Virus record (IMG/VR): IMGVR_UViG_3300029959_000004
Location: 1 to 64,000 of that record
Reading direction: 5' to 3' (one strand)
DNA: 64,000 nucleotides
Origin: a virus
Shown: positions 28,834 through 55,132 of the stretch, piece after piece
How the letters are laid out: every line of letters starts with the position of its first letter
Numbering within the stretch: position 1 is the stretch's first letter
Notes under the pieces: generated by a model
Told to the model about the DNA's origin: nothing
The model's input: the letters and a program-made list of their open reading frames with translations, nothing else
The model's database searches: none
Made by a program: the position numbers and the translations under genes

Positions 28834-28844
28834 ATAATAATCCT

Positions 28845-29735: not shown

Positions 29736-29780
29736 ATTTTTAATGCTCCAATATGTATAAAGCTAACTTAACAATATTTT

Positions 29781-30044: not shown

Positions 30045-30052
30045 TACTCTCC

Positions 30053-33633: not shown

Positions 33634-33762
33634 TTTCTAGTTTTATATAAACTCTTTTTAATAATTCTTTAAAAAGTTCTCTTCCAATAGAATCTTTTCT
33701 TAATTTTGTTTCTGTCTCTTTCCATACGTCTAACACTGCTTTTGCGTTGTCTTTAGACATTC

Positions 33763-34005: not shown

Positions 34006-34261
34006 AGTATTTTTTACAAAATTTAACTATTTCATAAGGTTGTGTTATCTTTTTATGTTCTTTTATCAACACACATTCATCTACGTACATAAATGTCAAC
34101 ATATATTCGTTAGTAGGATTTTTATATATTGTTTTTGCTCTTTTTATACTATCTGCCCAAAATCCCCATATTTTATTCCTATCTATTTTAACTATAATAC
34201 AGTAAGATTTAGAAGGATATTTATAAGTAATCAAATCACCAATCTTAAATTCACAATTCAT
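33998..34261 (-). CDS. Small head/tail-motif cassette protein
   Basis: EFKIGDLI...ITQPYEIVKFCKKYYV. Confidence 0.75.
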   Translation of the reverse strand: MNCEFKIGDLITYKYPSKSYCIIVKIDRNKIWGFWADSIKRAKTIYKNPTNEYMLTFMYVDECVLIKEHKKITQPYEIVKFCKKYYV

Positions 34262-35001
34262 TAACGACTTCTCCTTCTAGAAGAATAAGCTATATTGTTT
34301 CTAGTTTGAATTCTATTTTCTTCGTATTTAAAATATTCAGCGTATTTCTTTAGTTTTCTATCTTCCAACCCAGGTGCACAGTTAATTTCTAATACGTAAA
34401 GTTTATTGTCTTTACGAATAATATCAACTGCTCCAAAATTTAAATTTAATGTTTTAACTGCTCTCTTAGCTAAATCTATTAAAGAGTGTTTATATTCTCT
34501 ATCATAAGATACCTGAATCCAGCCATTTCTTTTACTTCTTACTACTTTGTTAGCCGTCTCTACTTTAGGTATTTTTACACTAACTATTGTATCATAATCT
34601 CCGAGAATATGTACTCTATATTCACTTGTTTTATCTATATATTGAATTAGATAATCATAATCTCTATTTAATCTATTTAATTCCTCTTGATTTCTAACGA
34701 AAATCACATCTCTTCCTTGAGAATGAAATCTTTTTCTTGCCAATAAAGGGAACATATCATTTGGTATTCTTTCTCCTCTAAGAAAGGTTTTGGGAGTAGA
34801 GATTTCATTGTTTTGCATTATTTTAGACGCTTTATACTTATCAAATTCACAGTTTGCGTTTAAATTCGCTCCAGTAAATTTTCCTCCGTAATTAACTATA
34901 AACTCTCTAAAAGAAGGAATATTAATTTTACTTGTTCTACAATTTAATTCTATCGCTAATTTTTTAGCGGTTATTCCCCCTTTTCTTCTAAAAATAAACA
35001 T
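34261..35001 (-). CDS. ATP-grasp ligase (RimK-like, phiEco32-type cluster)
   Basis: HSQGRD, IQYI..EYRVH, FGAVDI and YVLEINCAPG motifs. Confidence 0.88.
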   Translation of the reverse strand: MFIFRRKGGITAKKLAIELNCRTSKINIPSFREFIVNYGGKFTGANLNANCEFDKYKASKIMQNNEISTPKTFLRGERIPNDMFPLLARKRFHSQGRDVIFVRNQEELNRLNRDYDYLIQYIDKTSEYRVHILGDYDTIVSVKIPKVETANKVVRSKRNGWIQVSYDREYKHSLIDLAKRAVKTLNLNFGAVDIIRKDNKLYVLEINCAPGLEDRKLKKYAEYFKYEENRIQTRNNIAYSSRRRSR

Positions 35002-35058
35002 ACATTCTCTCCTTTTTAATAATATTTCTTACAGAATTCTACTATACCAAATGGTTTA
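34995..35058. repeat. 64-bp exact direct repeat (other copy 38302-38365): cassette tail, RBS and start of the next gene
   Basis: taaacatacattctctcctttttaataatatttcttacagaattctactataccaaatggttta occurs at both sites. Confidence 0.92.
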
Positions 35059-35306
35059 ATTATTCTATTTACTAATTTAATTGTACTAAAAGGCATATAT
35101 CCATAAAAAGTTCTAAATTTTTTTTCATTATTATGTTTAAACATATATAAAGCTTCTTTTATTGTGTTTCCCCAATAACCGTACGCTTTGTTTTCTTCAA
35201 TTTCTTTAATTACACAGTATCCTTGCGTACAGTATCCTTGAAAAATATCATCATAAAGAGAAGTTCTTATCTTATAAAAGACAAAGTCACCAATCTTAAA
35301 TTTCAT
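35016..35306 (-). CDS. Small head/tail-motif cassette protein
   Basis: MKFKIGDFV...IIKPFGIVEFCKKYY. Confidence 0.75.
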   Translation of the reverse strand: MKFKIGDFVFYKIRTSLYDDIFQGYCTQGYCVIKEIEENKAYGYWGNTIKEALYMFKHNNEKKFRTFYGYMPFSTIKLVNRIIKPFGIVEFCKKYY

Positions 35307-35629
35307 TTATAGTATCTTCTACAAAATTTTACAATACCATATTCTTTGATTGTTTTCTTTATTTCTCTATTAACAATTACAAAACTACCATACCAAGCAC
35401 TAAAATCTCTAAAATCATCGCTTACAGAAGCAAGTAAAGGATTATTTAATCCATCTTCACCGCACATATGATGTCTTGCGGTAGTTTTTAATATTTTATG
35501 TACTTTATATAACTGATTGATTGTTCCATAGTTATCTGTATCATGATAATTAGGAGAAATCCAAGATTTTCTACTAACATATCTAACAATGTCTCCTATT
35601 TTTAAATCTTTTGGATGTACAAATCTCAT
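35303..35629 (-). CDS. Small head/tail-motif cassette protein
   Basis: LKIGDIV...TIKEYGIVKFCRRYYK. Confidence 0.75.
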   Translation of the reverse strand: MRFVHPKDLKIGDIVRYVSRKSWISPNYHDTDNYGTINQLYKVHKILKTTARHHMCGEDGLNNPLLASVSDDFRDFSAWYGSFVIVNREIKKTIKEYGIVKFCRRYYK

Positions 35630-35630
35630 A

Positions 35631-36635
35631 TTATTTTTGTGGTAGAGAACCGCTTTCCATATAAGCTTTGTTGCAATCTTTACATATCATTGTTCCTCCC
35701 TCTAGAGAAATTTCTATCATTTCTTTAGTTGGAAAGAACTCTCCACAACTTTCACAACACTGTTCAGATTCTATATCTTCTTCGTTATTTTCTACTAATT
35801 TAATTTCTCCCTTTTTCACAGCTTTTCTACATTTTTTACATAAGTTGAAAGAAATAAAATCTCCTTTTGTTTCAGTTTCAATATCTACCGTCATTACATA
35901 TTTCATCTCATTACATCCTTCACATAAACCTTCAAAAACTACAGATTTGCCTTTGTTATCTACTTTATCTCTCACGGAGCTGTTTGTATTATCATTATAG
36001 TTTTCTTCTCTTTCATAATTATGAAAACCCAACAAACCGGCTCCTCTTTCAAAATAAGAACAAGATTTATAACCACTGTTTGAATAAAATATATTACTTT
36101 CTGTTTCCCAAGCACCAAACTTCTGAATTTCTCCATTGTTGTGCATAATAGCTAACTTATCTCCTTCAATAAATACGTTAATTAGTTTAATTACCGCTTC
36201 ACTGTGAAGATTATTTTTTATTGATTCGTCAGATAAAATATCTAATATAAACTTTTGTGTATCTGAGAATTTTTCGTGATGACCGTAGTTAGTAATTACT
36301 CCATTGTGAGCTACTGCAACTTGACAGATTAACTCCGGTTTTCTTAACAGTTCAGTATTCTTAGTTATAGGAAACGGATGCCTATTTCCTATATCTTTTA
36401 GACCGTGAGTAGCGAATCTAAAATGAATTACTAAAGCGTCTTCTTTAGAGAGATTATCTTTACACCAAGCGATCATATGTTTTGCATTAGTAAAGTCCTT
36501 CTTAATACAAACTTCATTAGAATTTACTTTCCAGTACATAATACCTATTCCGTCACTATTTCTAGTTTCTGCGTATAATAAATAAGCTTCTTTAGGAAAA
36601 TCTACTCCCTTCTCTTTAACAGCAATTAAGCACAT
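35631..36635 (-). CDS. Class II (Ntn) glutamine amidotransferase with C-terminal Zn ribbons
   Basis: N-terminal MC, NSDGIG, IHFRFATHG, HPF, AHNG and SDT motifs. Confidence 0.9.
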   Translation of the reverse strand: MCLIAVKEKGVDFPKEAYLLYAETRNSDGIGIMYWKVNSNEVCIKKDFTNAKHMIAWCKDNLSKEDALVIHFRFATHGLKDIGNRHPFPITKNTELLRKPELICQVAVAHNGVITNYGHHEKFSDTQKFILDILSDESIKNNLHSEAVIKLINVFIEGDKLAIMHNNGEIQKFGAWETESNIFYSNSGYKSCSYFERGAGLLGFHNYEREENYNDNTNSSVRDKVDNKGKSVVFEGLCEGCNEMKYVMTVDIETETKGDFISFNLCKKCRKAVKKGEIKLVENNEEDIESEQCCESCGEFFPTKEMIEISLEGGTMICKDCNKAYMESGSLPQK

Positions 36636-38308
36636 AATTTTTCTCCTTTCAGATGTTTTAACATTGTTCCATATTTTTCCTGGTCTTTAGCCCAATCTAT
36701 AAACAACTTCCAACTATTTTTTCTATATTCTCTTTCTCCTATTACTAGAGACGTAACTCCAACAACTTTTACAAAATAACTTAGAGCTTCCATAAATTGT
36801 AATATAGCAGTTATTCTTTTTGGATTTAATGTTCCTCTAAACATTCTTATTTCTACAGTATTAGTAGAACTATTCAAATTTAAAGCCCAATATCGACCAC
36901 TTTGAGAGCTATCGTTTAATATATCCTTTGTGTTAATTGTCTCAAATTTACAATAGTTTTCCCCAACTCCCTTTCTTCTAGACAATTCTTTAAGTTTATC
37001 TTCATTTTCTTTAAAGAATAATCTCATTTTGGTAATTTCTAAATCTTCAAAGAAATCTCTTGAGAGATGTATATGTAATCCACATTTACCACTCTCTTCT
37101 GAGGTAAATTCTTGTTCTTTCATCCATCTTAATATCTTGTTTAATTTCATTTCTCTGTGTGCATAAGATAGAGTAAACGGATGAGTAACTATCTCAAAAC
37201 CATTTGGAACGCTTCCATCGTGCTTGAGATAGTAATGTTTTTCTACTTTTTCTTTTTTAAGAAAAGAAATTAATTTTGAAGAAGCTTCTTTTTCTGAAGA
37301 ATCTCTTTGTACCTCTAATTCTAATCCCATAAATAAAGAGGCTTTCTGATCTTCTGAATTTTCCTTCTCCCATTTTAATTTTTTAAATTCTGGAGAGGGT
37401 TTATATGAATAATCGTGAATCAATCTTTCTTCTGCGGTAGAACCCTCTTCAGAATAACAATCTTCACAAAAAAGAAATCCATCACTTTCTCTAGTTCTCA
37501 TATCATCAACACGAAAAGTATCTCCACAGGCGTTGCATACAGAAAATCTTTCACTAAAACAATCACTACAATAAACGTTATCATCCGTTCCCGTGAATAT
37601 TTCACCTGAATGACAATCTAATTCACAATCACAAGAATAACAAGTAGCGAAATTTTCAGAGTAACAATCATCGCAATAACGATCTCCTTCTTCCGAAGTA
37701 AGCAAATCATCAATATAAAAATTTCCCTCACAACACGAACAAGAACCAACTTGTTGATTATAACATTCTTCACACCAAATTTTACCATCAAACTCGTGAG
37801 AACATTCTTCTTTCTCAATATTTTTTTTACACGATGAACATTTTACAATTTCCTTTGTTTTGAGTTTTCTCATGTTTTTCTCCTTTTCAAAAATTATATG
37901 AGCTTCTGTATTGTCTAAATTTATTAACCAAGAATATCTCCACTTGCCCGGTCTTTCTTTAATTCCAGTACCACCGTTAAGAGTATTGTTCCATAAACAG
38001 ATATATTTATTTTCATTTCTAGTAAAAATTTCTCCCACTTTTCCATAAATATATTTTTTATTCGCAATAGTTTCTGTGTCGTTCGCATTAGTTGCAATTA
38101 AATCACCAACGTTTATTTTATTAGAAATCTCATTTATATAGTATTTATTTACCTTCTCAATACCGCACTCATATAATTCTATTTCTAAATCATTTTTAAG
38201 AATACTTGTCAAGTACTTTGTTTCTCCTTCTGTTACTTCAGTTTTTGACAGTATTTTTATCAAAGTACTTTCGTTTTTTATTCTTGCTATTTCTCCCAAT
38301 TTAAACAT
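36626..38308 (-). CDS. Putative amidoligase (COOH-NH2 ligase) with tandem CxxC repeats
   Basis: MGLELEV, KHDGS, GFEIVTHP, CGLHIH, RYWALN and VEIRMFRGTL motifs; many CxxC pairs. Confidence 0.88.
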   Translation of the reverse strand: MFKLGEIARIKNESTLIKILSKTEVTEGETKYLTSILKNDLEIELYECGIEKVNKYYINEISNKINVGDLIATNANDTETIANKKYIYGKVGEIFTRNENKYICLWNNTLNGGTGIKERPGKWRYSWLINLDNTEAHIIFEKEKNMRKLKTKEIVKCSSCKKNIEKEECSHEFDGKIWCEECYNQQVGSCSCCEGNFYIDDLLTSEEGDRYCDDCYSENFATCYSCDCELDCHSGEIFTGTDDNVYCSDCFSERFSVCNACGDTFRVDDMRTRESDGFLFCEDCYSEEGSTAEERLIHDYSYKPSPEFKKLKWEKENSEDQKASLFMGLELEVQRDSSEKEASSKLISFLKKEKVEKHYYLKHDGSVPNGFEIVTHPFTLSYAHREMKLNKILRWMKEQEFTSEESGKCGLHIHLSRDFFEDLEITKMRLFFKENEDKLKELSRRKGVGENYCKFETINTKDILNDSSQSGRYWALNLNSSTNTVEIRMFRGTLNPKRITAILQFMEALSYFVKVVGVTSLVIGEREYRKNSWKLFIDWAKDQEKYGTMLKHLKGEKLCA

Positions 38309-38322
38309 ACATTCTCTCCTTT

Positions 38323-38583
38323 TTAATAATATTTCTTACAGAATTCTACTATACCAAATGGTTTACTATATTTATTAATCATTTCTAAATCATCTATAGA
38401 AAAACCTGAACATCTCGTATTATCTCTGAAAAACCTTACCACTATAGAATTTTCTCTTTTATCCATATCTATGTCTTTATGAAGAGCTCCTAACATAAGT
38501 ACTTTTTCTCCCACGCAAGGTAAAGAACAGGGACGAGTACAAAACTTTCCTCTTGTTTTTATTCTAGCTTTGCTATTAATCAT
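38323..38583 (-). CDS. Small tail-motif cassette protein
   Basis: ...SKPFGIVEFCKKYY. Confidence 0.7.
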   Translation of the reverse strand: MINSKARIKTRGKFCTRPCSLPCVGEKVLMLGALHKDIDMDKRENSIVVRFFRDNTRCSGFSIDDLEMINKYSKPFGIVEFCKKYY

Positions 38584-38669
38584 TGTATTGTCTCCAAATT
38601 TAACGAAGAGACCATAATATTCGGATAAGGGAGATATAAGAACCGTAATATTAGAGGGTCTCTTCCTAG

Positions 38670-38927
38670 TTATTTCTTTTCAATAGAACGCATAAATCTA
38701 ACTATACCATATTCTCTTATTATTTTCTTTGTAGAAAGAATAAAAGAATCTTCATACCAACTCCAATTATTCTCCAAAACATTGTAAACTTTTTTTCCGG
38801 GAGCAGTTGGAAAGTTGAATATTTTAGATATGGTAAATGTTTTGCCTATAAATGCGTTCATAATTTTATTCCAATCAAATTTACCTTCTTTTATTATTTT
38901 TATCTTATCTCCAATTTTATATTTCAT
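38670..38927 (-). CDS. Small head/tail-motif cassette protein
   Basis: MKYKIGDKI...IIREYGIVRFMRS. Confidence 0.75.
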   Translation of the reverse strand: MKYKIGDKIKIIKEGKFDWNKIMNAFIGKTFTISKIFNFPTAPGKKVYNVLENNWSWYEDSFILSTKKIIREYGIVRFMRSIEKK

Positions 38928-39176
38928 TTATTTATAGTTCTTCTTGCACCATTTTGCAATATTATATTCTTTATTTTTTCGTGTATTTACAAGTTTAAAT
39001 CTCCAATCGAAATAATCTTCTATTTGAAGTCTGTCAGAAATAACTTGATAAAATAGAGTATTTCCGCTCATATAACTATTTAAAATAGTATATTCTTTAT
39101 TTATAGTTAACTCACCAATATTAAGCCCACGATTTGAAACACAAATAACCTTAGTGTTTATTTTAAATATTTGCAT
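38928..39176 (-). CDS. Small head/tail-motif cassette protein
   Basis: IFKINTKV...NKEYNIAKWCKKNYK. Confidence 0.7.
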   Translation of the reverse strand: MQIFKINTKVICVSNRGLNIGELTINKEYTILNSYMSGNTLFYQVISDRLQIEDYFDWRFKLVNTRKNKEYNIAKWCKKNYK

Positions 39177-39825
39177 ATTTTAAACTCTTCGCTTTAGAAA
39201 CAAATTTCAATACCCAAAATATATACATTTTCATAGTTTCATAATTTAAAGTTCCATTAAACAATCTAAATTCAAGAGTTTTATAGCTGGAGTTTCTAAT
39301 ACAATCAATATTAAGAGCGTAATATTTTCTATCTTCTCTCCAGAAATCATCTTTGCAATACTTTCTAAACTCTGAAATATTATTTATCGTTAAGTTTTTA
39401 AGATGTTCAGGTAAAGGATGACAATATGAACACAATCTATTCCGTTGTACTTTAAATTTTGTTATAATAGCTTTTTGATTAACTAAAAATCTTTTAATTA
39501 CATTCGTTATTTCTTCGTCTGAAAAGTTTGATATATTAACGTGAATATGTAACCCACAAGTACTATTAATATATCCTTCGTTTGTTTTTATCATTTCTAA
39601 TAATTTTTTGATTTCTAATAACGATTTTTTGTTGTAAAAAAGATAATTTTTATATGAAGGTTTATATTCAAGTCCGTTGTCTAGCGAACCATCTTCTGTT
39701 ATTTCCCATCCTTCTAAGTAATGTTCTCTATTCCAACGTTTATTATTTATTATATCATAAGTATCAATATCGTCAGGATATTCAACCTCTATTTCTGGAC
39801 TAAATCTAATCTGTGTTATTCTCAT
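39163..39825 (-). CDS. Second putative amidoligase
   Basis: PEIEVE, EDGSL, TCGLHIHV, KYYALN and TLEFRLFNGTL motifs. Confidence 0.88.
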   Translation of the reverse strand: MRITQIRFSPEIEVEYPDDIDTYDIINNKRWNREHYLEGWEITEDGSLDNGLEYKPSYKNYLFYNKKSLLEIKKLLEMIKTNEGYINSTCGLHIHVNISNFSDEEITNVIKRFLVNQKAIITKFKVQRNRLCSYCHPLPEHLKNLTINNISEFRKYCKDDFWREDRKYYALNIDCIRNSSYKTLEFRLFNGTLNYETMKMYIFWVLKFVSKAKSLKYANI

Positions 39826-39835
39826 TTCTCTCTCC

Positions 39836-40102
39836 TTATTTTTTATTTATATTATTCATAAAATTCACGATTCCATATGGTTTAATATTTCTTTTAACTA
39901 ATTCTAGATGATGTTCCCAAACACCGTACCTATTTTGTGAGTCCCAATAAATATATGGAGAACAGTTTCTTGTTATGTAAGCTATCTTAAATTTTTTGTT
40001 TAATACCCAACCCGCTCCTCCATAAGAACAGTCATCATCAGATCCTTTAGATGTTAATACACATTTTACTTTATCTCCAATCTTAAATTTGGGGTTATTC
40101 AT
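39836..40102 (-). CDS. Small head/tail-motif cassette protein
   Basis: KFKIGDKV...NIKPYGIVNFM. Confidence 0.75.
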   Translation of the reverse strand: MNNPKFKIGDKVKCVLTSKGSDDDCSYGGAGWVLNKKFKIAYITRNCSPYIYWDSQNRYGVWEHHLELVKRNIKPYGIVNFMNNINKK

Positions 40103-40349
40103 AAAATTTCTTACAGAAATTAACTATATTATATGGTTTAATTGTCTTCTTTTTTACTAATACAAAACTATCTTCATTAATCCAATCTTCAAAATCTGGA
40201 TTATCTAAATCTCTAGTTTTTACAGCATCAAAATTATTATATTTTCTTCGTCCTATCTCTGTTATTACAGTTTTTCTCCCTATATTTTCTAGAGAAACAC
40301 CTCTACCACTTCTTATAACTTTTACTATGTCTCCAACTTTAAATTTCAC
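40095..40349 (-). CDS. Small head/tail-motif cassette protein
   Basis: MKFKVGDIV...TIKPYNIVNFCKKFYE. Confidence 0.75.
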   Translation of the reverse strand: MKFKVGDIVKVIRSGRGVSLENIGRKTVITEIGRRKYNNFDAVKTRDLDNPDFEDWINEDSFVLVKKKTIKPYNIVNFCKKFYE

Positions 40350-40375
40350 TTAAACTTCTCCTAATCTTAATATAT

Positions 40376-40501
40376 AATCTGACTAAAAAGGTGACTAACT
40401 ACCAATTTTTAGTTCTTATCGTGCTTTATATCAACTGATGTTGATAAAGGCGAGCAGAACCTTTTTAGTTTCGTTAGATTTTCACTAACTCTTCAGAGAT
40501 T
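40376..40501 (-). ncRNA. Hammerhead ribozyme, type I, with large insertion in stem III; predicted cleavage after GUC (40381/40380)
   Basis: AAUCU-CUGAAGA-GUUAG(UGAAAAU)CUAAC-GAAA-CUAAAAAGGU...ACCUUUUUAG-UC-AGAUU: complete core and three stems. Confidence 0.88.
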
Positions 40502-41406
40502 TTACGCTTTTACCAAGCGTTCCGAAGTCCATTCAGAATCAATTAATGACATTTCATCATCTGTGATAGATTGAGTATCCTCTACAGGATGAAATCCATT
40601 AGTTACTTCTCCTATTGAAACATCAAGAAGAGCAACTAATTTTCCTGAACGAATTAGCTGATATTTTCTATCATCAGAATCTTTTAAGACGTCTCCCGCT
40701 TTGAAAGTAACAATCTCCGGTACTAACTCAAATCTTGAAGCTTTAAAAGACACCTCTCTTCCAGCTTCGTTAATAATAACGAAGTTGCCATTTTCCTTCT
40801 GACGAATTACGTCATAAGTCTTACCAATCGCTAAATCTCTTGTTCCAGTTACATAAATAACTTTAACTTTCATTTCTTCCTCCTCTTTTGTTACTGGTTA
40901 ATAATAAATCATCTTATAGATGATCTGTTTTTCTCATTTCCTTTAGAAGCTTAACTATACCTAACCTATTTTTAGCTTCCATTAACTGCATTAACTTTTC
41001 CGCAAGATAGTCTTCTTCTGTTTCATATTTCTCTAAGAATTCTATCTCCCTTTCATTCTCCTCTACTTGTTTCTTTAATACATTAACTAAATTCTTTAAG
41101 TATTTAGCTTTTTCCTTTCTAGAAGCTAGACAGAAATCGTCTTTTTTATATCCTTCATAATCATAGAATATATTAAAAGTTGTATTTTTGTCACTTTTTA
41201 CAGAATAATATCCAACGTAGACCGCAGTAATTATTAAAACTTGTCCTTCATAACCAACAGTACCACTGTTTCTTCCTTTTATTAAAAGAATCTTGTCACC
41301 AACACTAAATTTATCTAAATCATTATCCATTTTATCTCCTTTTCTTTACAGTTAATAATATATAACTTTTATTTAGTAGTGTCTCACTTTATTCCTCCTT
41401 TCAATA

Positions 41407-41742
41407 TTAAAACCAAAATATAGGTCTATATATCGCATTTGGTAAACATCTTTGCATATTCTTTGCACCTATTGGATTACAACTATGTATTATTATTTTA
41501 CAGGTTAGATTTTTATCTTCAAGATATTTAGCTACCTGATAACCCGTATTTTCATCGTTTGAGTTGACAAATATTCTATTTCCTAAATCGTGATCTAAAC
41601 ATATTAAATCCCAATTTAAATCTCTTTTTAGAATATTAATAGCGTCTTTAGCTGTTTTGACAAATGTTATATTATGCCCAACATATTTTCTAGAGAAAGA
41701 ATCGTGTCTTGTTTGCATATCGTCAAGAAATAGAATTTTCAT
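41407..41742 (-). CDS. Cyclic-phosphate-processing receiver-domain protein (RNA-repair associated)
   Basis: ILFLDD.R, ICLDHDLG, TGYQVA and IIHSCNPIGAKNM are the signature motifs of this receiver subfamily. Confidence 0.8.
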   Translation of the reverse strand: MKILFLDDMQTRHDSFSRKYVGHNITFVKTAKDAINILKRDLNWDLICLDHDLGNRIFVNSNDENTGYQVAKYLEDKNLTCKIIIHSCNPIGAKNMQRCLPNAIYRPIFWF

Positions 41743-41753
41743 TTAATTCTCCT

Positions 41754-41972
41754 TCATTTATCATACATTTTTTTACAAAATTTAGATATTTCAAACTCTT
41801 TAACTGTATTTTTTTCTTTTATAAGAGAAAATCTAAAAGACATATAACCATATTTTCTACCAAGATTGTTTATTATATAAACCATATCGTCGGATTTTGA
41901 CAAAACATAATAGATTTTATTTATAGTTAATTCAATCCCACGTCCTGAATTATCTTTACATTTAACTTTCAT
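41754..41972 (-). CDS. Small tail-motif cassette protein
   Basis: ...TVKEFEISKFCKKMY. Confidence 0.7.
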   Translation of the reverse strand: MKVKCKDNSGRGIELTINKIYYVLSKSDDMVYIINNLGRKYGYMSFRFSLIKEKNTVKEFEISKFCKKMYDK

Positions 41973-41978
41973 ATGTTT

Positions 41979-42242
41979 TTAAAGAGATTTAATTAAATCA
42001 CCTCTCATAAAAGCTACTATCGGATATTCTCTGATAACTTTATTTTTTTCTATCAACTTCCAATTATTCAGGCAAGAACAACCACAATCGTGAGTGACTT
42101 CTGTCATTCTTCTTTGATTACTTGCATATAATATTTTACTTTCTTTAACCAATAAGTATCTTAGAGTGTAAATCTGTCCTTCCTTCGCTCCTGAACAATC
42201 AGACAATATTCTTATTTTATCTCCCTCTTTAAACTCTCGCAT
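41979..42242 (-). CDS. Small head/tail-motif cassette protein
   Basis: EFKEGDKI...VIREYPIVAFMR. Confidence 0.75.
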   Translation of the reverse strand: MREFKEGDKIRILSDCSGAKEGQIYTLRYLLVKESKILYASNQRRMTEVTHDCGCSCLNNWKLIEKNKVIREYPIVAFMRGDLIKSL

Positions 42243-42495
42243 TTACATTCTCCAAGAATTTTACTATGGGAAACGGTTTAATAACTTTCTTTTTCTTTTC
42301 AATTAATTCTATCATAAATTCTTTAATTAAATCACCCGTTTTTTCTTCGTGATTATAACTTGAATCCCATATTATAATATATTCATAAACGGAAAAGTAT
42401 CTTACGATAGTTCCTGTCCATCCTGTTTGAGCATAAGGTAGCCAAAGATCGTATGATATTACTACCTTTACTCGGTCTCCTTTTTTAAATTTCAT
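42229..42495 (-). CDS. Small head/tail-motif cassette protein
   Basis: MKFKKGDRV...VIKPFPIVKFLEN. Confidence 0.75.
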   Translation of the reverse strand: MKFKKGDRVKVVISYDLWLPYAQTGWTGTIVRYFSVYEYIIIWDSSYNHEEKTGDLIKEFMIELIEKKKKVIKPFPIVKFLENVNARV

Positions 42496-42754
42496 AGTAT
42501 TCTCTATAATAACTCTTTACTAGATTAAAATTAAAACTATTTATAAATCCATCTAGCATATCGAACCAACAATTAAAAAATCGCTGTAGTTTAGTGGGAA
42601 TTATTTTATATATAATCCAATGTATAAATTCATGAATAAAAGTTTCTATATAATCTATTCCTTTCATATCTTCTCTTATATAGATAGTTTCTTCATCTAA
42701 ATAACCATAAACATTAATATTTTCTTTACTCTTTCTGAAGAGTTGTACACGCAT
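42485..42754 (-). CDS. Small HExxH metallopeptidase-like protein
   Basis: IYI...ETFIHEFIH. Confidence 0.5.
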   Translation of the reverse strand: MRVQLFRKSKENINVYGYLDEETIYIREDMKGIDYIETFIHEFIHWIIYKIIPTKLQRFFNCWFDMLDGFINSFNFNLVKSYYREYYEI

Positions 42755-43247
42755 TAGACTTCTCCATAATTATTTTATAAAGTTTTTCATTAGATTTATC
42801 TAACTCTTTAACTTTATCAGTTAATTCTTGTATTTTTTCAGTTAATATTTCTACCGAACGTCTTTGATTTACACCAACTTTATTTTGTCTTAATTCATAT
42901 ATTTCTATTTGTTTTAAACTATTTTCCATATCTAAATCTTTGCATCCACTTAATAAAAACAAAGATAATATTATAAAGGCGATTTTCTTAGTTGTTTCTC
43001 TCATAAATCTGACTATTTCATATTCTCTTATTATTTTCTTTTTCTCAACTAATTCTAAATCACTCTCTAAAAAACCGGAGCATCCTCCAGCTTTCTTCTC
43101 AAAATTAGATACATAAACATAACAATCATAGATTTTCGGATTACTGACTATTCCTATTAAACCAACAAATGGGCAAAAATCACCACATACAAAACAATCA
43201 TTTTTTTTAACAACCTTTACTTTATCTCCAGTCTTAAATTTGCTCAT
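42726..43247 (-). CDS. Cassette protein fused in frame to a lipoprotein-like module
   Basis: MSKFKTGDKV...IIREYEIVRFMRETTKK followed by IAFIILSLFLLSGC and a coiled coil. Confidence 0.65.
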   Translation of the reverse strand: MSKFKTGDKVKVVKKNDCFVCGDFCPFVGLIGIVSNPKIYDCYVYVSNFEKKAGGCSGFLESDLELVEKKKIIREYEIVRFMRETTKKIAFIILSLFLLSGCKDLDMENSLKQIEIYELRQNKVGVNQRRSVEILTEKIQELTDKVKELDKSNEKLYKIIMEKSNACTTLQKE

Positions 43248-44721
43248 TTTATATATATTACAACACTTTTCCAAGATAAATCTTTTAATCTTTTTATTTC
43301 ATCTATCGCCCATCTAATAAAATCTTCACATTCTGACTGATTATCAAAATTTGCATATCCTTTTTTAAATACCCAATCATAATCTGCCATTTTTATCCTC
43401 CTACAGCACAATTTCCACAATCAAAATACATACTTGTATTAGTTTCTCTTCTATCTTTACTTCTTTCAGTATCTATAAAATCTTGCATATTTATAGATAA
43501 CTCTGCTACATTAGTCTCACAATCCGAACATTTAAAATTTATTTTTGTTTTAAGTTCCTTCAACATATCTTTTGGTATATTCTTTAATTTTACATATATT
43601 CTATTTATACCAAACTCGTCTCTACCAATTTTACCAATAAAAGTTTTTAACCCTTTTCCTCTCATTTTCTTTTTCTCCTCTTCTCATATATATAAATGAC
43701 TAAATAATTATATCTTCCTTCTAAACTTTTATCTATCTGCTCGGGACCAAAACCGCCTACAGAACCAAACAAATGTGCTTCTAATAATTCAATAAGAGCC
43801 TCAGCTTTTGCTGAATATTCTGCGACGCTTTGTGCCCAATCAACTTCAATATGTTGTCTCCACTGATTTATTTGTTGTATATCGTCTTTTATGTCTTTTA
43901 GAATTTTAACAAGAGGAATGCTCATATCTTTATTCATTTTTTCTCTACCACAACCAGTACAAATATTCTTACCTTTTTTATTTCTTTTGATTCCAACCCA
44001 ATTTGTGCAATTACAAGTCATTTTATTCTCCTTTTATATACTTGTGTAATATGGGTTATTCTCCTATAAACCAAATTCTTTTGAAGCCAACCCACCAAGA
44101 CGGTTTAGATTCCATAAACTTTCCGCAATGTAGACATCGTAACCAGAAACCTCCCGAAAATCTAACATCCAAATGTAAACAGTTTGTCATCTAAGTCTTC
44201 TTTTTAAAATTTAGCAAATCTTTCTATTATACTTTTAGCGTGATGTTGTCTATCCTCATATTTATCACTTCTATACATCAATTCATACCACCACATCATA
44301 GCTTTGTAAGTCCTACCTAATTCTTTAGCTAAATCAAAGAGTTTTTCTTCTTCCTTTATTTCATTAGAAGTTTTTGACTTGAATCTCTCTATTTCCCAGT
44401 CTTCTATAGGTTCCTTAAATCTATCTGCTGTTAAAATAGATTCCTTCTGATAGTTTCTCTTCATATTTCTTTTACCTAAGAACATGGACGCTGTTATCAT
44501 TATTTTAATGATATTTTTCAATAGAAACAACAGTTTCCAAAACTTCTTCTAAATGATATTTATCCTTTTTCCAGATAAAATCTCCACATGAGCTAATATA
44601 ATATGTATTTATTTTAATCCATTTAATTTCTTTGTTTTCAATAGCTCTAACTAAATCTTTTAGAATATTTCTTTTAAATCCTTTTATTTTAACATTGTTT
44701 AAATTTTTGGGAAATGCCATA

Positions 44722-46968
44722 TTAATCTCCTTTAATTACAGCCAAAGGGCTTAATTCCACAAGTATTTCTACTAAATCCGACTGATTTTTCATAACATCT
44801 TCAATTTTCTTATACGCTCCAGAAGCCTCTTCTAAATTATTTACATTTCTAATACCGTGAATAATTCCTTGATCGTCCAATATCTTAATTTCTTCTTTTA
44901 GATTTAATTGACGACAAGCCTCTTTTCTTCCCATAACTCTACCTGCACCGTGAGAACAACTTTCAAAGCTTTCTTTGTTTCCTAAACCTTTAACTATATA
45001 AGACTTAGTTCCTTGAGATCCCGGTATTATACCTATTGTTCCTTCACGAGCTAATGTTGCTCCTTTTCTATGTACTATTACATTCTCTCCAAAGTGATTT
45101 TCCCATATTGCGTAATTATGTGCTATATTTATTGTTGCTTTACCGCAACCGGTTTCTTGATTGTTTATGTCTTTTAGATAGAATCCTTCATCGTTAAATT
45201 CTTTGTTAAATATCTCTACTATATTACTCATCATTAAAAACCTATTAGCTAAAGCAAAATCCACACAATACTGCATTTCCAACATATAGTCTTTAGCTTC
45301 CTGAGTTTCTATAGGTAAGAAAGCCAATTCACATTCTTTAGGAACATAAACATACCACTTACCGTTTAGGTTCTTTGCTAACTCATTATAATAGTTAGCT
45401 ACTTTATATCCTAAGTTCCGACTTCCTGAATGTATCATAATCCAGATATTATTCTCGGTATCTTTTTGAATCTCAATAAAATGATTTCCCCCTCCTAAAG
45501 TACCGATTTGTTTTAACGCGTTGAAATATTCTTTTTTAATAACATTATAGTTTTCTAACATATCTCTAATTGTTTCTGCTTTAATTGGCATTAAATTTTC
45601 ATCTTGTCTTTCTTTATGACTTCCGTCACGCCCGTTTCCAACAGGAATAACTTCTCTAATCTTTCCCATTATCTTCTTTAAAGTTTCTCTATCTAATTGT
45701 TCTGATTTTAAAGAAGTCTTAACCGCACACATACCGCAATTATGAACAAATACCCCAGAAGATAAGGCAAAATTATGATATTTATCAATAGTTAAACAAT
45801 AAACATCTTCTTTTTTATTTATTAGTTTAATTGAAATAATTTTATGATTTTTTCTATTTTTATTCCAATAAGCTCCAAAACCATATTTTTTACCAATTTC
45901 AGAAGATTTGACTCTTCCTTTTTCAGATTTGTTATATTGAATTAAAAATTTCTTTCCTCTTTCTCCAGCTAATTTAGCTTGTTCTTTAAATTTTTCAGTT
46001 TTTGAATAATTAATCCAATTTTGTATTGCGTTCTTTTTTACAATTTCTTGGAAATCTTTTCTTTGATGTAATTTTCTCATATTTTCTGATGCCATTTTAG
46101 AAAATAAAATGGGATTATTCTTTCTTGCTATTTTAAATCCAACGATACCTAATTTAGAGTTTTTACCAACATTTTTATAATGTATTTCCCAATGTTTTTT
46201 CCAATTAACTCGTTTTATGTTTGTAGGGTTATTGTTATATTTATTAAAATCTATATGGTGTCTAACTCCTTTAGTTTTTTTATAAATACCATTTAATATA
46301 TTAAACTCATCTGCTAAAATATGAATATAGCGATACTTATTATTCTTAGGATTATAAATTACATTATAATCTTTCATTTTTTCTTTTTTAAATTGATGCT
46401 CAAATTCAATATCTTCCACTTCAAATGCTTTATTAATGTAAATTGGCATTAACGATTGTCCAATTTTTAATTTTTTCGCTCTAATTTCTTTATTTTCTCT
46501 ATCATAAAATATATGATCTTTAGTGCATTTAATTATTTCATTATTATCCAATTTTATTTCTAAAAGTTCGTTGGCAATTCGTGTTTTTCTGGGACTATTA
46601 ATTTTTGATATAACAATATTTGATTCTTTATCCAGAGAGTAACAAAAATTTTCTTTACCTCTATTATATTCTTTAATTAATTCTAAAAATGATAAATCTC
46701 TTCCATCAGTTAATTTAACTTTTGTATCACCAGTAAAACATCCAATATCAACACCTACTGCATTAGGTATTACTACTTTCTTAGTAGCTAATACTCCACC
46801 AATAGGCATACCAAATCCTTGATGACAGTCCGGCATTACCGCTATGTGTTTGAAAGCGAATGGTAAATTGGATAAATTAACCAATTGTTTCACAGCTCCG
46901 TCTTCTATCTCATCTAACCACATCTTTATTGGAACTTTTTGTTTATCTGTATCATATATTACTTTCAT
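44722..46968 (-). CDS. rtcB: RtcB RNA ligase (2',3'-cyclic phosphate/3'-P to 5'-OH) with intein
   Basis: MPDCHQG, PIGGV, VGVDIG|CGM, GTLGGGNHFIE, HSGSR, HNY, VHRKGAT, IPGS, SHGAGR and EASGAYK motifs. Confidence 0.96.
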   Translation of the reverse strand: MKVIYDTDKQKVPIKMWLDEIEDGAVKQLVNLSNLPFAFKHIAVMPDCHQGFGMPIGGVLATKKVVIPNAVGVDIGCFTGDTKVKLTDGRDLSFLELIKEYNRGKENFCYSLDKESNIVISKINSPRKTRIANELLEIKLDNNEIIKCTKDHIFYDRENKEIRAKKLKIGQSLMPIYINKAFEVEDIEFEHQFKKEKMKDYNVIYNPKNNKYRYIHILADEFNILNGIYKKTKGVRHHIDFNKYNNNPTNIKRVNWKKHWEIHYKNVGKNSKLGIVGFKIARKNNPILFSKMASENMRKLHQRKDFQEIVKKNAIQNWINYSKTEKFKEQAKLAGERGKKFLIQYNKSEKGRVKSSEIGKKYGFGAYWNKNRKNHKIISIKLINKKEDVYCLTIDKYHNFALSSGVFVHNCGMCAVKTSLKSEQLDRETLKKIMGKIREVIPVGNGRDGSHKERQDENLMPIKAETIRDMLENYNVIKKEYFNALKQIGTLGGGNHFIEIQKDTENNIWIMIHSGSRNLGYKVANYYNELAKNLNGKWYVYVPKECELAFLPIETQEAKDYMLEMQYCVDFALANRFLMMSNIVEIFNKEFNDEGFYLKDINNQETGCGKATINIAHNYAIWENHFGENVIVHRKGATLAREGTIGIIPGSQGTKSYIVKGLGNKESFESCSHGAGRVMGRKEACRQLNLKEEIKILDDQGIIHGIRNVNNLEEASGAYKKIEDVMKNQSDLVEILVELSPLAVIKGD
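45739..46740 (-). mobile_element. Intein (334 aa) with HNH endonuclease in rtcB, inserted before the active-site Cys
   Basis: Starts CFTGDT; CTKDH; RHHIDFNKYNNNPTN; ends GVFVHN followed by Cys. Confidence 0.92.
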
Positions 46969-47248
46969 TTTATATTCTCCTCTTTAGATTAGTTTTTAGA
47001 ATCTTGATGTGAAATTCTATATTCCCAATTCCACCAATCTTCTATAGTTCCTACATAAAATGTACCTTTTCTTTCTACAAAACACAGCCACGCTTTAACT
47101 TCTCTTTTATCTTTTGTAATATCTACAACTATAGGAAACCAAGCAAACCACTTGTGCCATTCTTCAAGTTTTTTTATTTCTTTATCTTTAATTTCTTTTT
47201 TCAATCTTACTATATTTTCTTTTGTATAACCATTAGTCCAAATCATCT

Positions 47249-47310
47249 ATTCTCCTTTCGGGCTTATTTAATGCCCTCATCAGTTAATGAATTACATTAA
47301 GAGGAACAAT
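47249..47310 (-). ncRNA. Hammerhead ribozyme, type III; predicted cleavage after CUC (47301/47300)
   Basis: UUCC-UC-UUAAUG(UAAUU)CAUUAA-CUGAUGA-GGGC(AUUAAAUAA)GCCC-GAAA-GGAG; loops I and II are complementary (UAAU/AUUA). Confidence 0.92.
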
Positions 47311-47850
47311 CTAAGTAGTAGATTTTTTAGAAATAACTCTCCATTGTCAATAGACCGCCAACAAAAAACACAAAACCTAAAAATAACCAACACAAAATAA
47401 CTATTTCTCGTCTTTCTATTCCATAACAACCACGAAACACACTATCTATATCTCCCAAAGTATGATCCATCTCTTGACCGCTTATTTGATACATAGCTTG
47501 TTGATATTCAAGAGATTTTTCTTTCATTCTAGAAGTTGTTTCTAGTCTGCTTATTAAAGTATCTAATATCTTTAATTGAGTAGATTTAGTCATTCTTTCC
47601 GTTTTAAAGATATAGTTAGCATGTTCTTCGCTAATATTACTAACTTTTTCTCTGTATTCCTTAAAATACATCAGTTTATCTTTAGCTGTTGAAGCGTCAT
47701 CCGCTAATTTTAAGAACTGTTTATATTTTACCTCGTAGTTATATGCAATATCAACTCCGAGAATTGTTCCTAAAACAAAAAACAATATTGCAAGACCAAA
47801 TAATAGAAATTTCATTCTTATCTCCTTTTTTGGTCTACTACTTAGATTGT
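47306..47850. repeat. Perfect 17-bp inverted repeat (47306-47322 / 47834-47850) bracketing one gene
   Basis: acaatctaagtagtaga and its reverse complement tctactacttagattgt. Confidence 0.9.
47327..47815 (-). CDS. Membrane protein with two terminal TM helices
   Basis: Hydrophobic N- and C-terminal segments; flanked by a 17-bp inverted repeat. Confidence 0.7.
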   Translation of the reverse strand: MKFLLFGLAILFFVLGTILGVDIAYNYEVKYKQFLKLADDASTAKDKLMYFKEYREKVSNISEEHANYIFKTERMTKSTQLKILDTLISRLETTSRMKEKSLEYQQAMYQISGQEMDHTLGDIDSVFRGCYGIERREIVILCWLFLGFVFFVGGLLTMESYF

Positions 47851-47858
47851 CAAAGAAC
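47847..47858 (-). promoter_or_regulatory. boxA-like antitermination element
   Basis: GTTCTTTGACAA in an intergenic position. Confidence 0.6.
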
Positions 47859-48572
47859 CAAACTTATTTACAAACAGATAGCTTGATGTGTTTTTTCATA
47901 TTCTTCCACGAACTTACATATTATAGTTCCATAGTCTCCTTCTATTCTCTCATTAGTATCTTTCTTAACAATAGACCAAGTTACAACCTGATGTTGTAAG
48001 TAGTTTTTATACTCCATTCTTTGTAGCATTATGTTATTATCCGTAAGAATATGAAAATTCTTTCTATCTCTCATTGCCATTTTCTGTGTTCCCATATAAA
48101 TTTTCCAAGCGTGTTCTTTTGCTCTTGCTAAAACCACATCAATTTGTTGCTTTTCTGTCAGGTTATTTAGCTTATTTACAACGTTTTGATCCATTTTACT
48201 TCCTCCTATTTAATAACCAAATTTATTTAGAGTATTGTCTAAATACGCTCTCATTACAATTAAAGTCGCTAAAAATTCATCATCTACGGTTATTTTTGTT
48301 CCACTTAAAGCTACAATATCGTCTAAAGCTACAATATCGTCAATTCTTTTTAATTTAGAGACCTTTTCATTTAGATTATCTGAAATTTTAAACATTTCAT
48401 CTCTACTTAATTTCTTTTTATTATTTCTCATTATCAAACTCTCTTTCTAATTTAACTATCTCTTCCTCTAATAAAATCTTCTCGTCTTCTGTTAAATCCT
48501 TAAAAATTACGTGAGCCTCTTTCATTAACTTAATAATATTTCCAACTTTTTCCATTTTTATTCTCCTTAATT

Positions 48573-48632
48573 GGTCTCATTCAGTTTTGTATTAAACAAA
48601 AGACGGAGATAATGTAACTCTCCGTTTCGACC
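48573..48632 (-). ncRNA. Hammerhead ribozyme, type II, core with a 1-nt insertion (CUGAAUGA); predicted cleavage after GUC (48602/48601)
   Basis: GGUC-GAAA-CGGAGA(GUUACAUUA)UCUCCG-UC-UUUUGU(UUAAU)ACAAAA-CUGAAUGA-GACC; loop I UUAAU can pair with the 3' tail AUUAA. Confidence 0.82.
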
Positions 48633-52472: not shown

Positions 52473-52510
52473 ACAAAAAAACCGTCTACTCCTGTTACGA
52501 ATAGACGGTC
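52473..52510 (-). terminator. Intrinsic terminator
   Basis: ACCGUCUAUUC(GUAACAG)GAGUAGACGGU followed by a U tract. Confidence 0.75.
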
Positions 52511-55104: not shown

Positions 55105-55132
55105 ACTATAACACTATAAGAAAATATGTAAA
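55105..55132 (-). promoter_or_regulatory. Putative early sigma70 promoter (TTTACA-N16-TATAGT, extended -10)
   Basis: Motif match at the head of the leftward gene block. Confidence 0.5.

What the first reader, a model, noticed from the sequence alone, without database searches (positions are those of the whole stretch)
40376..48632. Three hammerhead ribozymes bracket the phage's own RtcB ligase: a possible natural ribozyme/RtcB mRNA circularisation or splicing system
Seen: three complete hammerheads on the coding (-) strand, all intergenic and each just upstream of an RBS. They are type II at 48573-48632, type III at 47249-47310 and type I at 40376-40501. Between the last two lie rtcB (44722-46968) and a cyclic-phosphate-processing receiver gene (41407-41742). 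Established: hammerhead cleavage leaves 2',3'-cyclic phosphate and 5'-OH ends, which are exactly the substrates of RtcB. Ribozyme-flanked RNA plus RtcB is the principle of engineered 'Tornado' circular-RNA expression. Inference: if transcription is continuous (boxA sites at 55051 and 47847; no obvious terminator between the ribozymes), cleavage releases a 1301-nt piece (48601-47301) and a 6920-nt piece (47300-40381). Each piece has a 5'-OH and a 3' cyclic phosphate. Phage RtcB could circularise them into exonuclease-resistant mRNAs (one encoding RtcB itself), re-ligate them, or splice out a segment. The receiver protein could regulate this by removing the cyclic phosphate. A simpler alternative is that the 5'-OH ends merely stabilise downstream mRNAs.
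Basis: partly seen in the sequence, partly recalled or inferred. Interest (0 to 1): 0.93.

Follow-up and report, generated by a model that had tools for sequence, protein, structure and literature searches.

The report
Phage hammerhead trio; RtcB link unsupported
Three self-cutting hammerhead RNA motifs really do sit between genes of an uncultured groundwater phage and probably chop its long transcript into pieces, a layout known in phages since 2011, but nothing I could test links them to the RtcB RNA ligase gene that lies between two of them.

Summary
The three motifs are at the stated coordinates, on the coding strand, each in an intergenic spacer just upstream of a ribosome-binding site. 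A descriptor scan finds only these three in the 109-kb genome, against 0.023 expected from shuffles. They are not equally convincing. HH2 (type III) and HH3 (type I) have canonical cores. HH1 (type II) has a one-base insertion after A6, a natural variant reported to have low activity, but it carries the typical type II pseudoknot. HH3 has a competing fold 6.3 kcal/mol more stable than the hammerhead fold. No Rfam hammerhead model scores any of the three, and no homologues exist for covariation. RtcB (with a 334-aa intein) and the cREC_REC gene are confirmed.

The circularisation or splicing idea failed every test I could run. Only 1 of 22 related rtcB phage contigs has a hammerhead, on the opposite strand. 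No predicted RNA ends are complementary. RtcB plus cRec is already a described RNA-repair association. Perreault et al. 2011 described clustered phage hammerheads, raised circular or spliced products, and did not detect them. The best reading is ordinary mRNA processing beside an independent repair module. This scan reached the same verdict earlier on other phage DNA. No RNA data exist.

The parts
48573..48632 (-). HH1, type II hammerhead motif. Stem II GGUC/GACC, GAAA, 7-bp stem III, cut after C48602, 6-bp stem I, variant core CUGA-A-UGA (one-base insertion after A6).
   Evidence: found only with the relaxed core. The MFE and centroid fold is the hammerhead junction, z=-2.1. The A6a variant has reported low activity (PMC3088659).
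48567..48571 (-). AUUAA, one base after HH1 stem II, perfectly complementary to loop I UUAAU (48591-48595). This is the 5-bp pseudoknot typical of type II hammerheads. It abuts the SD AAGGAG of ORF 48421-48555.
   Evidence: Read. The pseudoknot rule is from PMC3088659. My own composition estimate gives a chance probability of about 0.02.
47252..47306 (-). HH2, type III hammerhead motif. Stem III UUCCU/AGGAG, cut after C47301, 6-bp stem I, canonical CUGAUGA, 4-bp stem II GGGC/GCCC, GAAA. The 3' strand of stem III is the Shine-Dalgarno of ORF 46989-47246.
   Evidence: The isolated MFE is the hammerhead fold, z=-1.3.
47306..47322 (-). 3' arm of a 17-bp perfect long-range stem. It ends at HH2 stem III position 16.5, 5 nt before the cut.
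   Evidence: It is the only perfect inverted repeat of >=17 nt within 1 kb in the genome; shuffles average 0.08. It forms in the 636-nt MFE.
47834..47850 (-). 5' arm of the long-range stem, just upstream of the SD of the 162-aa membrane-protein gene. It is preceded by the boxA-like GUUCUUUGACAA.
40376..40501 (-). HH3, type I hammerhead motif. Stem I AAUCU/AGAUU, canonical CUGAAGA, 5-bp stem II, GAAA, 10-11-bp stem III enclosing a roughly 68-nt insert, cut after C40381. It starts directly after the stop codon of ORF 40502-40873.
   Evidence: The hammerhead fold is -25.1 kcal/mol against -31.4 for a competing hairpin. The region's z of -4.07 belongs to the competing fold.
44722..46968 (-). rtcB, 748 aa, interrupted by a 334-aa intein (residues 77-410, DNA 45739-46740) at the GVDIG|C...HN|CGMC site.
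   Evidence: (PF01139, PF14890).
41407..41742 (-). cREC_REC (cyclic-phosphate processing receiver) gene, 111 aa.
   Evidence: PF20274, 71.5 bits; phrog_1479. Context from PMC7824862.
46989..47246 (-). 85-aa ORF of unknown function, the first gene after the HH2 cut. rtcB starts 20 nt behind it.
   Evidence: No Pfam or PHROG family.
47327..47815 (-). 162-aa predicted membrane-protein gene enclosed by the long-range stem.
   Evidence: Its homologues sit in non-syntenic contexts without a hammerhead or a flanking repeat.
48421..48555 (-). 44-aa ORF, the first gene after the HH1 cut.
40095..40349 (-). 84-aa ORF (GTG start) of the FKxGDxV...IKPYxIVxF paralogue family, the first gene after the HH3 cut.
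55105..55132 (-). Best promoter-like site of the leftward block (TTTACA-16-TGTTATAGT). A boxA-like GATCTTTGACAA lies about 45 nt downstream.
   Evidence: These are consensus matches only.
52480..52510 (-). Strong terminator-like hairpin (12 bp plus a U-run), upstream of all three ribozymes.

Best explanation
Three hammerhead ribozyme motifs, one of each circular permutation, are built into intergenic spacers of a roughly 55-kb leftward block of about 80 mostly small genes in a 109-kb groundwater phage. They most likely cut the polycistronic transcript at 48602/48601, 47301/47300 and 40381/40380. This yields segments whose new ends are a 5'-OH and a 2',3'-cyclic phosphate, mostly capped by hairpins, and so uncouples the stability and translation of the downstream genes.

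At HH2, cleavage should also free the Shine-Dalgarno sequence that forms the 3' strand of stem III. A 17-bp long-range stem would hold and protect the 3' end of the upstream product. Activity probably differs between sites: HH2 is canonical, HH1 is probably slow because of its A6a-type insertion, and HH3 is conditional because a more stable fold competes with it.

The intein-bearing RtcB and the cRec protein are an RNA-repair or counter-defence module that happens to lie inside the bracket and does not depend on the ribozymes.

Shown: the motifs, their non-random occurrence and placement, and the gene identities. Inferred: self-cleavage, continuous transcription, and the functional consequences.
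For: Only these three motifs occur in the genome, against 0.023 expected. All are on the coding strand, inside spacers of 77-152 nt, with the cut 31-54 nt before the next start codon. For HH1 the hammerhead fold is both the MFE and the centroid, and HH1 has the loop I/3'-tail pseudoknot described as typical of type II (PMC3088659). HH2's stem I is 2 bp longer than its stem II, a difference the same paper associates with pseudoknots in type III.

Perreault et al. 2011 report multiple hammerheads flanking genes or short gene blocks in prophages. They found three such arrangements active in vitro and one in vivo, and proposed processing into operon- or gene-length mRNAs. No convincing intrinsic terminator lies between 48.6 and 40.3 kb on the minus strand. 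cRec is operonically linked to RNA ligases in phage and cellular genomes as an RNA-repair association (PMC7824862). 21 of 22 related rtcB phage records have no hammerhead.
Against: No Rfam hammerhead model scores any of the three sites, even at E<=10. This is weakened by the control: a canonical phage hammerhead in L040 reaches only 30.7 bits against the 48.5-bit gathering score. There are no homologues of any of the three, so no covariation support. HH1 has a core insertion with reported low activity. The hammerhead fold of HH3 is 6.3 kcal/mol less stable than a competitor. Transcription continuity is not shown.
Confidence: 0.62

Rival explanations
1. Ribozyme/RtcB coupling. Phage RtcB joins hammerhead-generated 2',3'>p and 5'-OH ends. 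It could circularise the 1301-nt or 6920-nt pieces, splice out a segment, or reseal the HH2 cut and so re-mask the SD in front of the 85-aa ORF and rtcB as a feedback loop.
For: The end chemistry matches RtcB substrates (established knowledge). rtcB is the second gene after the HH2 cut, and rtcB and cREC both lie between HH2 and HH3. My rough estimate of that placement arising by chance is 0.04-0.07, but it is post hoc. Engineered ribozyme-plus-RtcB circular RNAs work in cells (literature listed).
Against: Only 1 of 22 related rtcB phage records has a hammerhead, and it is on the opposite strand. There is no synteny. No end-to-end complementarity exists for any circle or skip product. The three ribozymes differ in type and sequence, so they cannot re-form a shared hammerhead around a new junction as viroid-like RNAs do. 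Perreault et al. looked for spliced or circular products from clustered phage hammerheads and found none. RtcB plus cRec has an independent explanation. Circularising a 6.9-kb RNA without an end clamp would be inefficient (inference).
Confidence: 0.09
2. Some or all of the motifs are not working ribozymes. HH1 would be mainly an intrinsic terminator (7-bp hairpin plus UCUUUUGUUU) with a damaged core. HH3 would be a long stabilising or RNase III-type hairpin. Only HH2, or none of them, would cleave. On this reading they are decaying relics or look-alikes.
For: Rfam is silent on all three. HH1 has a core insertion with reported low activity, and its stem III plus U-run is terminator-like; it missed the terminator scan only because its loop of 9 nt exceeds the 8-nt limit. 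The MFE of HH3 is the non-hammerhead hairpin, with z=-4.07. No homologues show conservation.
Against: The joint chance of three full motifs is very small. HH1 has the specific type II pseudoknot and folds as a hammerhead. HH3 has a perfect core abutting a 5-bp stem II and a 10-bp stem III, with A15.1-U16.1 and C17 in register. All three are on the coding strand and in spacers.
Confidence: 0.17
3. HH2 together with the 17-bp long-range stem is the functional unit. It would be a cleavage-dependent translational switch and 3'-end clamp that separates the membrane-protein mRNA from the mRNA for the 85-aa ORF and rtcB. HH1 and HH3 would be incidental.
For: The SD AGGAG is the 3' strand of stem III. 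The only >=17-nt perfect inverted repeat in the genome ends at stem III position 16.5 and forms in the global MFE.
Against: The repeat is only marginally significant genome-wide: 4 of 60 shuffles had one. It is not conserved around homologues of the enclosed gene. The design does not recur in IMG/VR. In the 636-nt MFE, the SD strand pairs with an upstream CU-rich tract instead of stem III.
Confidence: 0.12

Closest known systems
Clustered hammerhead ribozymes flanking genes in prophages and phages (Perreault et al. 2011, PLoS Comput Biol, PMC3088659)
   Same: Several hammerheads within a few kb on one strand of a phage transcript, in spacers flanking single genes or short gene blocks of varying identity. 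All three permutation types are used. The type II member has a loop I/3'-tail pseudoknot. An A6a-type core insertion is seen in nature.
   Different: One of each type lies in a single transcript. HH2's stem III contains the SD and abuts a 17-bp long-range stem. HH3 carries a roughly 68-nt insert with a competing fold. None of the three is recognised by current Rfam models, and none has a detectable homologue.
Tornado-type engineered circular RNA expression, and viroid or retrozyme circularisation (ribozyme cleavage followed by RtcB or tRNA ligase)
   Same: Self-cleaving ribozymes that leave 5'-OH and 2',3'>p ends, with an RtcB ligase available in the same cell.
   Different: There is no stem or shared ribozyme fold to bring the two ends together. 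The pieces are 1.3 and 6.9 kb of ordinary polycistronic mRNA. There is no conserved co-occurrence and no junction evidence.
RtcB + cRec RNA-repair / NAD-conflict modules of phages (Iyer et al. 2021, Viruses, PMC7824862)
   Same: An RtcB-family ligase and a stand-alone cyclic-phosphate-processing receiver domain protein on the same strand of a phage early-type gene block.
   Different: The two genes are 3 kb and about 11 small genes apart rather than adjacent. The phage has no tRNA genes. No other recognisable repair enzyme is nearby.
Engineered hammerhead riboswitches that mask a ribosome-binding site in a ribozyme stem (recalled from memory, not checked here)
   Same: At HH2 the SD forms one strand of a hammerhead stem, so cleavage and product release should unmask it.
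   Different: This is a natural sequence with no evident ligand-binding aptamer, and the effect is untested.

Membership tests
Hammerhead ribozyme (Rfam clan CL00010) | Core C3-U4-G5-A6-N7-G8-A9 | tested here: inconclusive
   HH2 has CUGAUGA and HH3 has CUGAAGA, both exact. HH1 has CUGAAUGA, a one-base insertion after A6. A natural A6a variant was reported with low activity (PMC3088659).
Hammerhead ribozyme (Rfam clan CL00010) | G12-A13-A14, the A15.1-U16.1 pair and a non-G at position 17 in register with the core | tested here: met
   All three have GAA, then an A paired with U, then C17.
Hammerhead ribozyme (Rfam clan CL00010) | Three helices radiating from the core | tested here: met
   Stems I/II/III are 6/4/7 bp (HH1), 6/4/5 bp (HH2) and 5/5/11 bp (HH3). 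The hammerhead fold is the MFE for HH1 and HH2 but not for HH3.
Hammerhead ribozyme (Rfam clan CL00010) | Tertiary contact between stems I and II (loop-loop or pseudoknot) | tested here: inconclusive
   HH1 has a 5-bp loop I/3'-tail pseudoknot as in the type II consensus. HH2 has only a 4-bp A/U complementarity between loops I and II, which is easily chance. HH3 has an A.A internal mismatch in an extended stem I but no clear partner.
Hammerhead ribozyme (Rfam clan CL00010) | Score at or above the gathering threshold of RF00008, RF00163 or RF02276 | tested here: not met
   No hit at gathering or at E<=10. The control phage hammerhead in L040 scores 30.7 bits, also below the 48.5-bit cut-off.
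Hammerhead ribozyme (Rfam clan CL00010) | Covariation in homologues | not testable with these tools
Hammerhead ribozyme (Rfam clan CL00010) | Site-specific self-cleavage | not testable with these tools
   This needs in vitro transcription or RNA end mapping.
Clustered phage hammerheads (Perreault 2011) | Two or more hammerheads within a few kb, on the same strand as the genes, in spacers flanking genes of a phage | tested here: met
   Three motifs lie within 8.3 kb on the coding strand in intergenic spacers of a DTR-bounded virus record.
Ribozyme + RtcB circular or spliced RNA system (Tornado-like or viroid-like) | The two ends to be joined are held together by base pairing or a shared fold | tested here: not met
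   Duplex energies for all six end pairs lie within the background, with z no better than -1.6.
Ribozyme + RtcB circular or spliced RNA system (Tornado-like or viroid-like) | Ribozymes and ligase co-occur in related genomes | tested here: not met
   1 of 22 rtcB-carrying viral records has a hammerhead, on the opposite strand. There is no shared neighbourhood.
Ribozyme + RtcB circular or spliced RNA system (Tornado-like or viroid-like) | Junction-spanning RNA molecules | not testable with these tools
   Only DNA contigs could be laid.
RtcB-cRec RNA-repair module | An RtcB-family ligase and a cREC_REC domain protein in one gene neighbourhood | tested here: met
   PF01139 at 356 bits and PF20274 at 71.5 bits, on the same strand about 3 kb apart. 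The association is described in PMC7824862.

The most novel reading that the evidence does not exclude
The phage RtcB does act on its own hammerhead-cut transcripts. The least implausible version is that it reseals the HH2 nick, whose two ends stay together in stem III next to the 17-bp clamp. That would re-mask the Shine-Dalgarno in front of the 85-aa ORF and rtcB, giving an RNA cut-and-reseal feedback on ligase expression. Circularisation of the 1.3-kb piece is a second version. Either would be the first natural ribozyme/protein-ligase mRNA circuit in a DNA phage.
Probability: 0.07. Interest if true: 0.85.

Novelty: new member of a known kind. Interest (0 to 1): 0.3.

Why it matters
If the three motifs cleave, this phage adds a compact example of ribozyme-based operon processing. 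It has all three hammerhead permutations in one transcript. One of them masks a ribosome-binding site and sits next to a long-range RNA clamp, which makes it a convenient natural system for asking what bacterial and phage hammerheads are for. The case also shows that current Rfam hammerhead models miss AT-rich phage representatives. The more exciting idea of a natural Tornado-like circular mRNA system is not supported. Its only basis is gene proximity in one genome that has no detectable relatives.

Tried and rejected
- Rfam over the whole genome at gathering score, and over 10 kb and three short stretches at E<=10, gave no hammerhead or other ribozyme.
- megablast of the block against GenBank phages gave no match.
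- Sequence patterns for HH2, HH1 and HH3 in viral contigs gave 0 hits.
- A pattern for type III hammerheads with the same SD-containing stem III gave 2 hits, both without stems and so chance.
- The 85-aa ORF as an anchor gave 2 weak, non-syntenic loci.
- Homologues of the 162-aa gene gave 12 metagenome loci with no hammerhead, no synteny and no flanking inverted repeat, and none in viral contigs.
- The 560-aa neighbour as an anchor gave no relative.
- The paralogue alignment A2 was too divergent to search with.
- Sequencing runs: no RNA holder listed. The laid runs were DNA contigs only. They showed the same phage at low depth plus unrelated, partly intein-less rtcB fragments, and gave nothing usable at the ribozyme sites.
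- The boxA-like motif is not enriched.
- The middle-promoter repeat found at 22.6 and 27.7 kb has no copy between the ribozymes.
- aragorn found no tRNA or tmRNA in the genome.
- Pfam and PHROGs on 20 neighbouring ORFs found nothing RNA-related beyond RtcB and cREC.
- The GC-richer 183-nt gap at 44022-44203 has no significant fold, z=+0.65.
- A look-alike search for HH3 among earlier scan notes found none outside this genome.


Full report
**What the window is.** The window is the first 64 kb of a 109,385-bp IMG/VR virus record with direct terminal repeats. It was assembled from a groundwater metagenome. It is AT-rich, about 30 % G+C. Genes from about 55 kb down to 0.4 kb run leftward on the minus strand as roughly 80 mostly small ORFs. 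A rightward block starts at 55.8 kb.

**The observation.** Read on the minus strand, each of the three sites shows the full hammerhead layout.
- HH1 (48632-48573) is type II: GGUC, GAAA, a 7-bp stem III hairpin, U-C and the cut, a 6-bp stem I hairpin, CUGAAUGA, GACC.
- HH2 (47306-47252) is type III: UUCCU-C and the cut, a 6-bp stem I hairpin, CUGAUGA, a 4-bp stem II hairpin, GAAA, GGAG.
- HH3 (40501-40376) is type I: AAUCU, CUGAAGA, a 5-bp stem II hairpin, GAAA, a 10-11-bp stem III enclosing about 68 nt, U-C and the cut, AGAUU.

I wrote a descriptor scan that covers all three permutations. It requires the core, GAA, A15.1-U16.1, a non-G at position 17 and contiguous stems. It finds exactly HH2 and HH3 in the whole genome on both strands. 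HH1 is added when position 7 may be one or two bases. In 300 dinucleotide-preserving shuffles of the genome, motifs at least as good as the weakest real one (stems >=5/4/5 bp) occur 0.023 times per genome. All three lie on the coding strand, inside spacers of 77, 80 and 152 nt. They occupy three of about twenty gaps of >=45 nt in the block. The cut falls 31-54 nt ahead of the next start codon. The motifs are therefore real and not chance.

**Qualifications.**

Rfam is negative. It finds none at E<=10 in a 10-kb search, in three searches of 121-181 nt, or when RF00008, RF00163 and RF02276 are run directly on the genome. I treat this as real but weak evidence against. A canonical, GC-rich type III hammerhead that both Rfam and my descriptor find in an unrelated phage contig (L016/L040) reaches only 30.7 bits against RF00008's 48.5-bit gathering score. 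That model rewards a 7-bp stem III with the AGUC/GAAACU signature, which HH2 lacks.

HH1's core has one base too many (CUGA-A-UGA). Perreault et al. 2011 report a natural insertion after A6 ('A6a') with low activity (PMC3088659). In its favour, the hammerhead junction is both the MFE and the centroid structure of HH1 (z=-2.1). Its loop I UUAAU is also perfectly complementary to AUUAA one base after stem II. That is the pseudoknot the same paper describes for most type II hammerheads. HH1's stem III followed by UCUUUUGUUU also looks like an intrinsic terminator. It escaped the terminator scan only because its loop is 9 nt.

HH3 has a perfect core, but the hammerhead fold (-25.1 kcal/mol) is 6.3 kcal/mol less stable than an extended hairpin. 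That hairpin uses second copies of GUUAG and CUAAAAA inside the stem III insert. The strong structure signal (z=-4.07) belongs to the competitor. HH3 may therefore be slow or conditional.

No homologue of any of the three could be found, so covariation cannot be assessed.

**The genes.**
- ORF 44722-46968 is RtcB (PF01139, E=3e-106). It is interrupted by a 334-aa intein at GVDIG|C...HN|CGMC.
- ORF 41407-41742 is a cREC_REC protein (PF20274, E=1e-19).
- The other roughly 20 ORFs between and around the ribozymes have no informative family.
- The genome has no tRNA gene.
- Iyer et al. 2021 defined cRec as a predicted 2',3'-cyclic phosphate or cADPr-processing enzyme. They report operonic linkage of cRec to RNA ligases in phage and cellular genomes as part of RNA repair (PMC7824862). 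The RtcB-cRec pair therefore needs no ribozyme to be explained.

**Testing the coupling idea.**

Linkage: I collected 22 viral contigs encoding the closest RtcB C-extein relatives (32-65 % identity) with up to 10 kb on each side, about 400 kb in all. The descriptor finds one weak hit inside an rtcB gene and one good hammerhead in L016, on the strand opposite to rtcB. Running the three Rfam hammerhead models over the whole 22 records finds that same single site and nothing else. None of these loci shares any neighbouring gene with the window, not even cREC.

End juxtaposition: efficient RtcB joining in Tornado constructs, tRNA exons and viroid-like RNAs relies on the two ends being held together. 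I compared duplex energies between the last 40 nt before each cut and the first 40 nt after each cut with 400 random 40-mers from the same transcript. For all circle and skip combinations, z is no better than -1.6. The best values come from UUCCU pairing with a Shine-Dalgarno. Because the three ribozymes differ in type and sequence, they cannot rebuild a common hammerhead around a new junction.

Precedent: Perreault et al. already raised spliced or circular products for clustered phage hammerheads and could not detect them. I found no report of a natural phage or bacterial ribozyme/RtcB circular mRNA.

RNA evidence cannot be had here, because only DNA contigs could be laid.

What remains for the idea is chemistry that is compatible in principle, plus proximity in one genome. 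rtcB is the second gene after HH2. By my rough post hoc estimate, that placement has a 4-7 % chance of arising at random.

**How it most likely works.** The arrangement matches the clustered prophage hammerheads of Perreault et al. Those flank genes of varying identity and cleave in vitro and in vivo, and the authors proposed that they process long phage transcripts into operon- or gene-length mRNAs.

Five of the six predicted new ends here are capped by helices:
- The HH1 upstream product ends in the stem III hairpin.
- The HH1 and HH2 downstream products begin with the stem I hairpin.
- The HH3 upstream product ends in the whole ribozyme.
- The HH2 upstream product ends 5 nt after a 17-bp perfect long-range stem.

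That long-range stem has arms at 47850-47834 and 47322-47306. It encloses the 162-aa membrane-protein gene. It is the only such repeat in the genome, with shuffles averaging 0.08, and it forms in the global MFE.

5'-OH ends are poor entry points for 5'-end-dependent RNases (established knowledge). Segment-specific stabilisation is therefore a reasonable consequence, though it is inferred.

At HH2 the 3' strand of stem III is the SD AGGAG of the next ORF. Cleavage and release of the short UUCCUC>p strand should unmask it (inference).

No convincing terminator lies between the ribozymes apart from HH1 itself. A promoter-like site at 55132-55105 has a boxA-like sequence 45 nt downstream, and a second boxA-like copy sits at 47858-47847. 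The motif is not enriched, however, so antitermination and continuous transcription remain assumptions.

**Comparison and novelty.** This is a new member of a known kind: clustered phage hammerheads. Three features are unusual but unvalidated:
- All three permutations occur in one transcript.
- An SD-containing stem III lies next to a long-range clamp.
- The type I member has a large insert and a competing fold.

It is not a member of any circularising ribozyme/ligase system by the features I could test. Earlier follow-ups in this scan on other phage genomes (e1-5951904, e1-3417229) reached the same verdict on RtcB. I used them only as leads and tested the claim here on independent loci.

**Verdict.**
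- Observation: partly confirmed. The motifs are real, one core is variant, one fold is contested, and Rfam is silent.
- Interpretation: partly supported, and only in its 'simpler alternative'.
- Interest: 0.3.

Noticed in passing
window 47306-47322 and 47834-47850: A 17-nt perfect inverted repeat with both arms intergenic encloses the 162-aa membrane-protein gene and its SD. It is the only such repeat within 1 kb in the genome. It could be an RNase III-type processing stem or a 3'-end clamp. It is absent around homologues of the gene elsewhere.
   Followed up: partly
window 45739-46740 (-): There is a 334-aa intein in rtcB at the conserved DIG|CG metal-ligand cysteine, with an HNH-like H...N...H stretch. 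Metagenome contigs of other organisms join across roughly these coordinates, which is consistent with intein-less rtcB relatives.
   Followed up: partly
window 22651-22666 and 27761-27776 (-): Two spacers share a near-identical stretch of about 50 nt containing CTCTTGACA-N17-ATAAAT followed by a hairpin. These are probably repeated internal promoters of the leftward block. No copy lies between the ribozymes.
   Followed up: partly
window 28600-43300 (-): About 20 small paralogous ORFs have an FKxGDxV head and a shared IKPYxIVxF(C/M)KK tail. They have no Pfam family and are only 23-37 % identical to each other. Several lie between HH2 and HH3, and one is the first gene after the HH3 cut.
   Followed up: partly
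window 20220-20400 (-): A 181-nt spacer folds into a long, nearly continuous hairpin (-44 kcal/mol, mononucleotide-shuffle z=-4.1). It has no Rfam family.
   Followed up: no
window 38584-38669 (-): A spacer contains a 9-bp GC-containing stem (GGAAGAGACC...GGUCUCUUC) closing a structured loop, z=-3.8. It has no U-run, so it is not an obvious terminator.
   Followed up: no
window 52480-52510 (-): A strong intrinsic-terminator-like hairpin (12 bp plus UUUUUUGUU) lies inside the leftward block, upstream of all three ribozymes. This implies either a separate downstream promoter or antitermination.
   Followed up: no
L016 14032-14085 (-) = L040 1501-1543 (+): This is a canonical GC-rich hammerhead (RF00008, 30.7 bits, below gathering) in an unrelated 40-kb phage contig. 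It lies about 3 kb from an rtcB gene but on the opposite strand. I used it as a positive control.
   Followed up: partly
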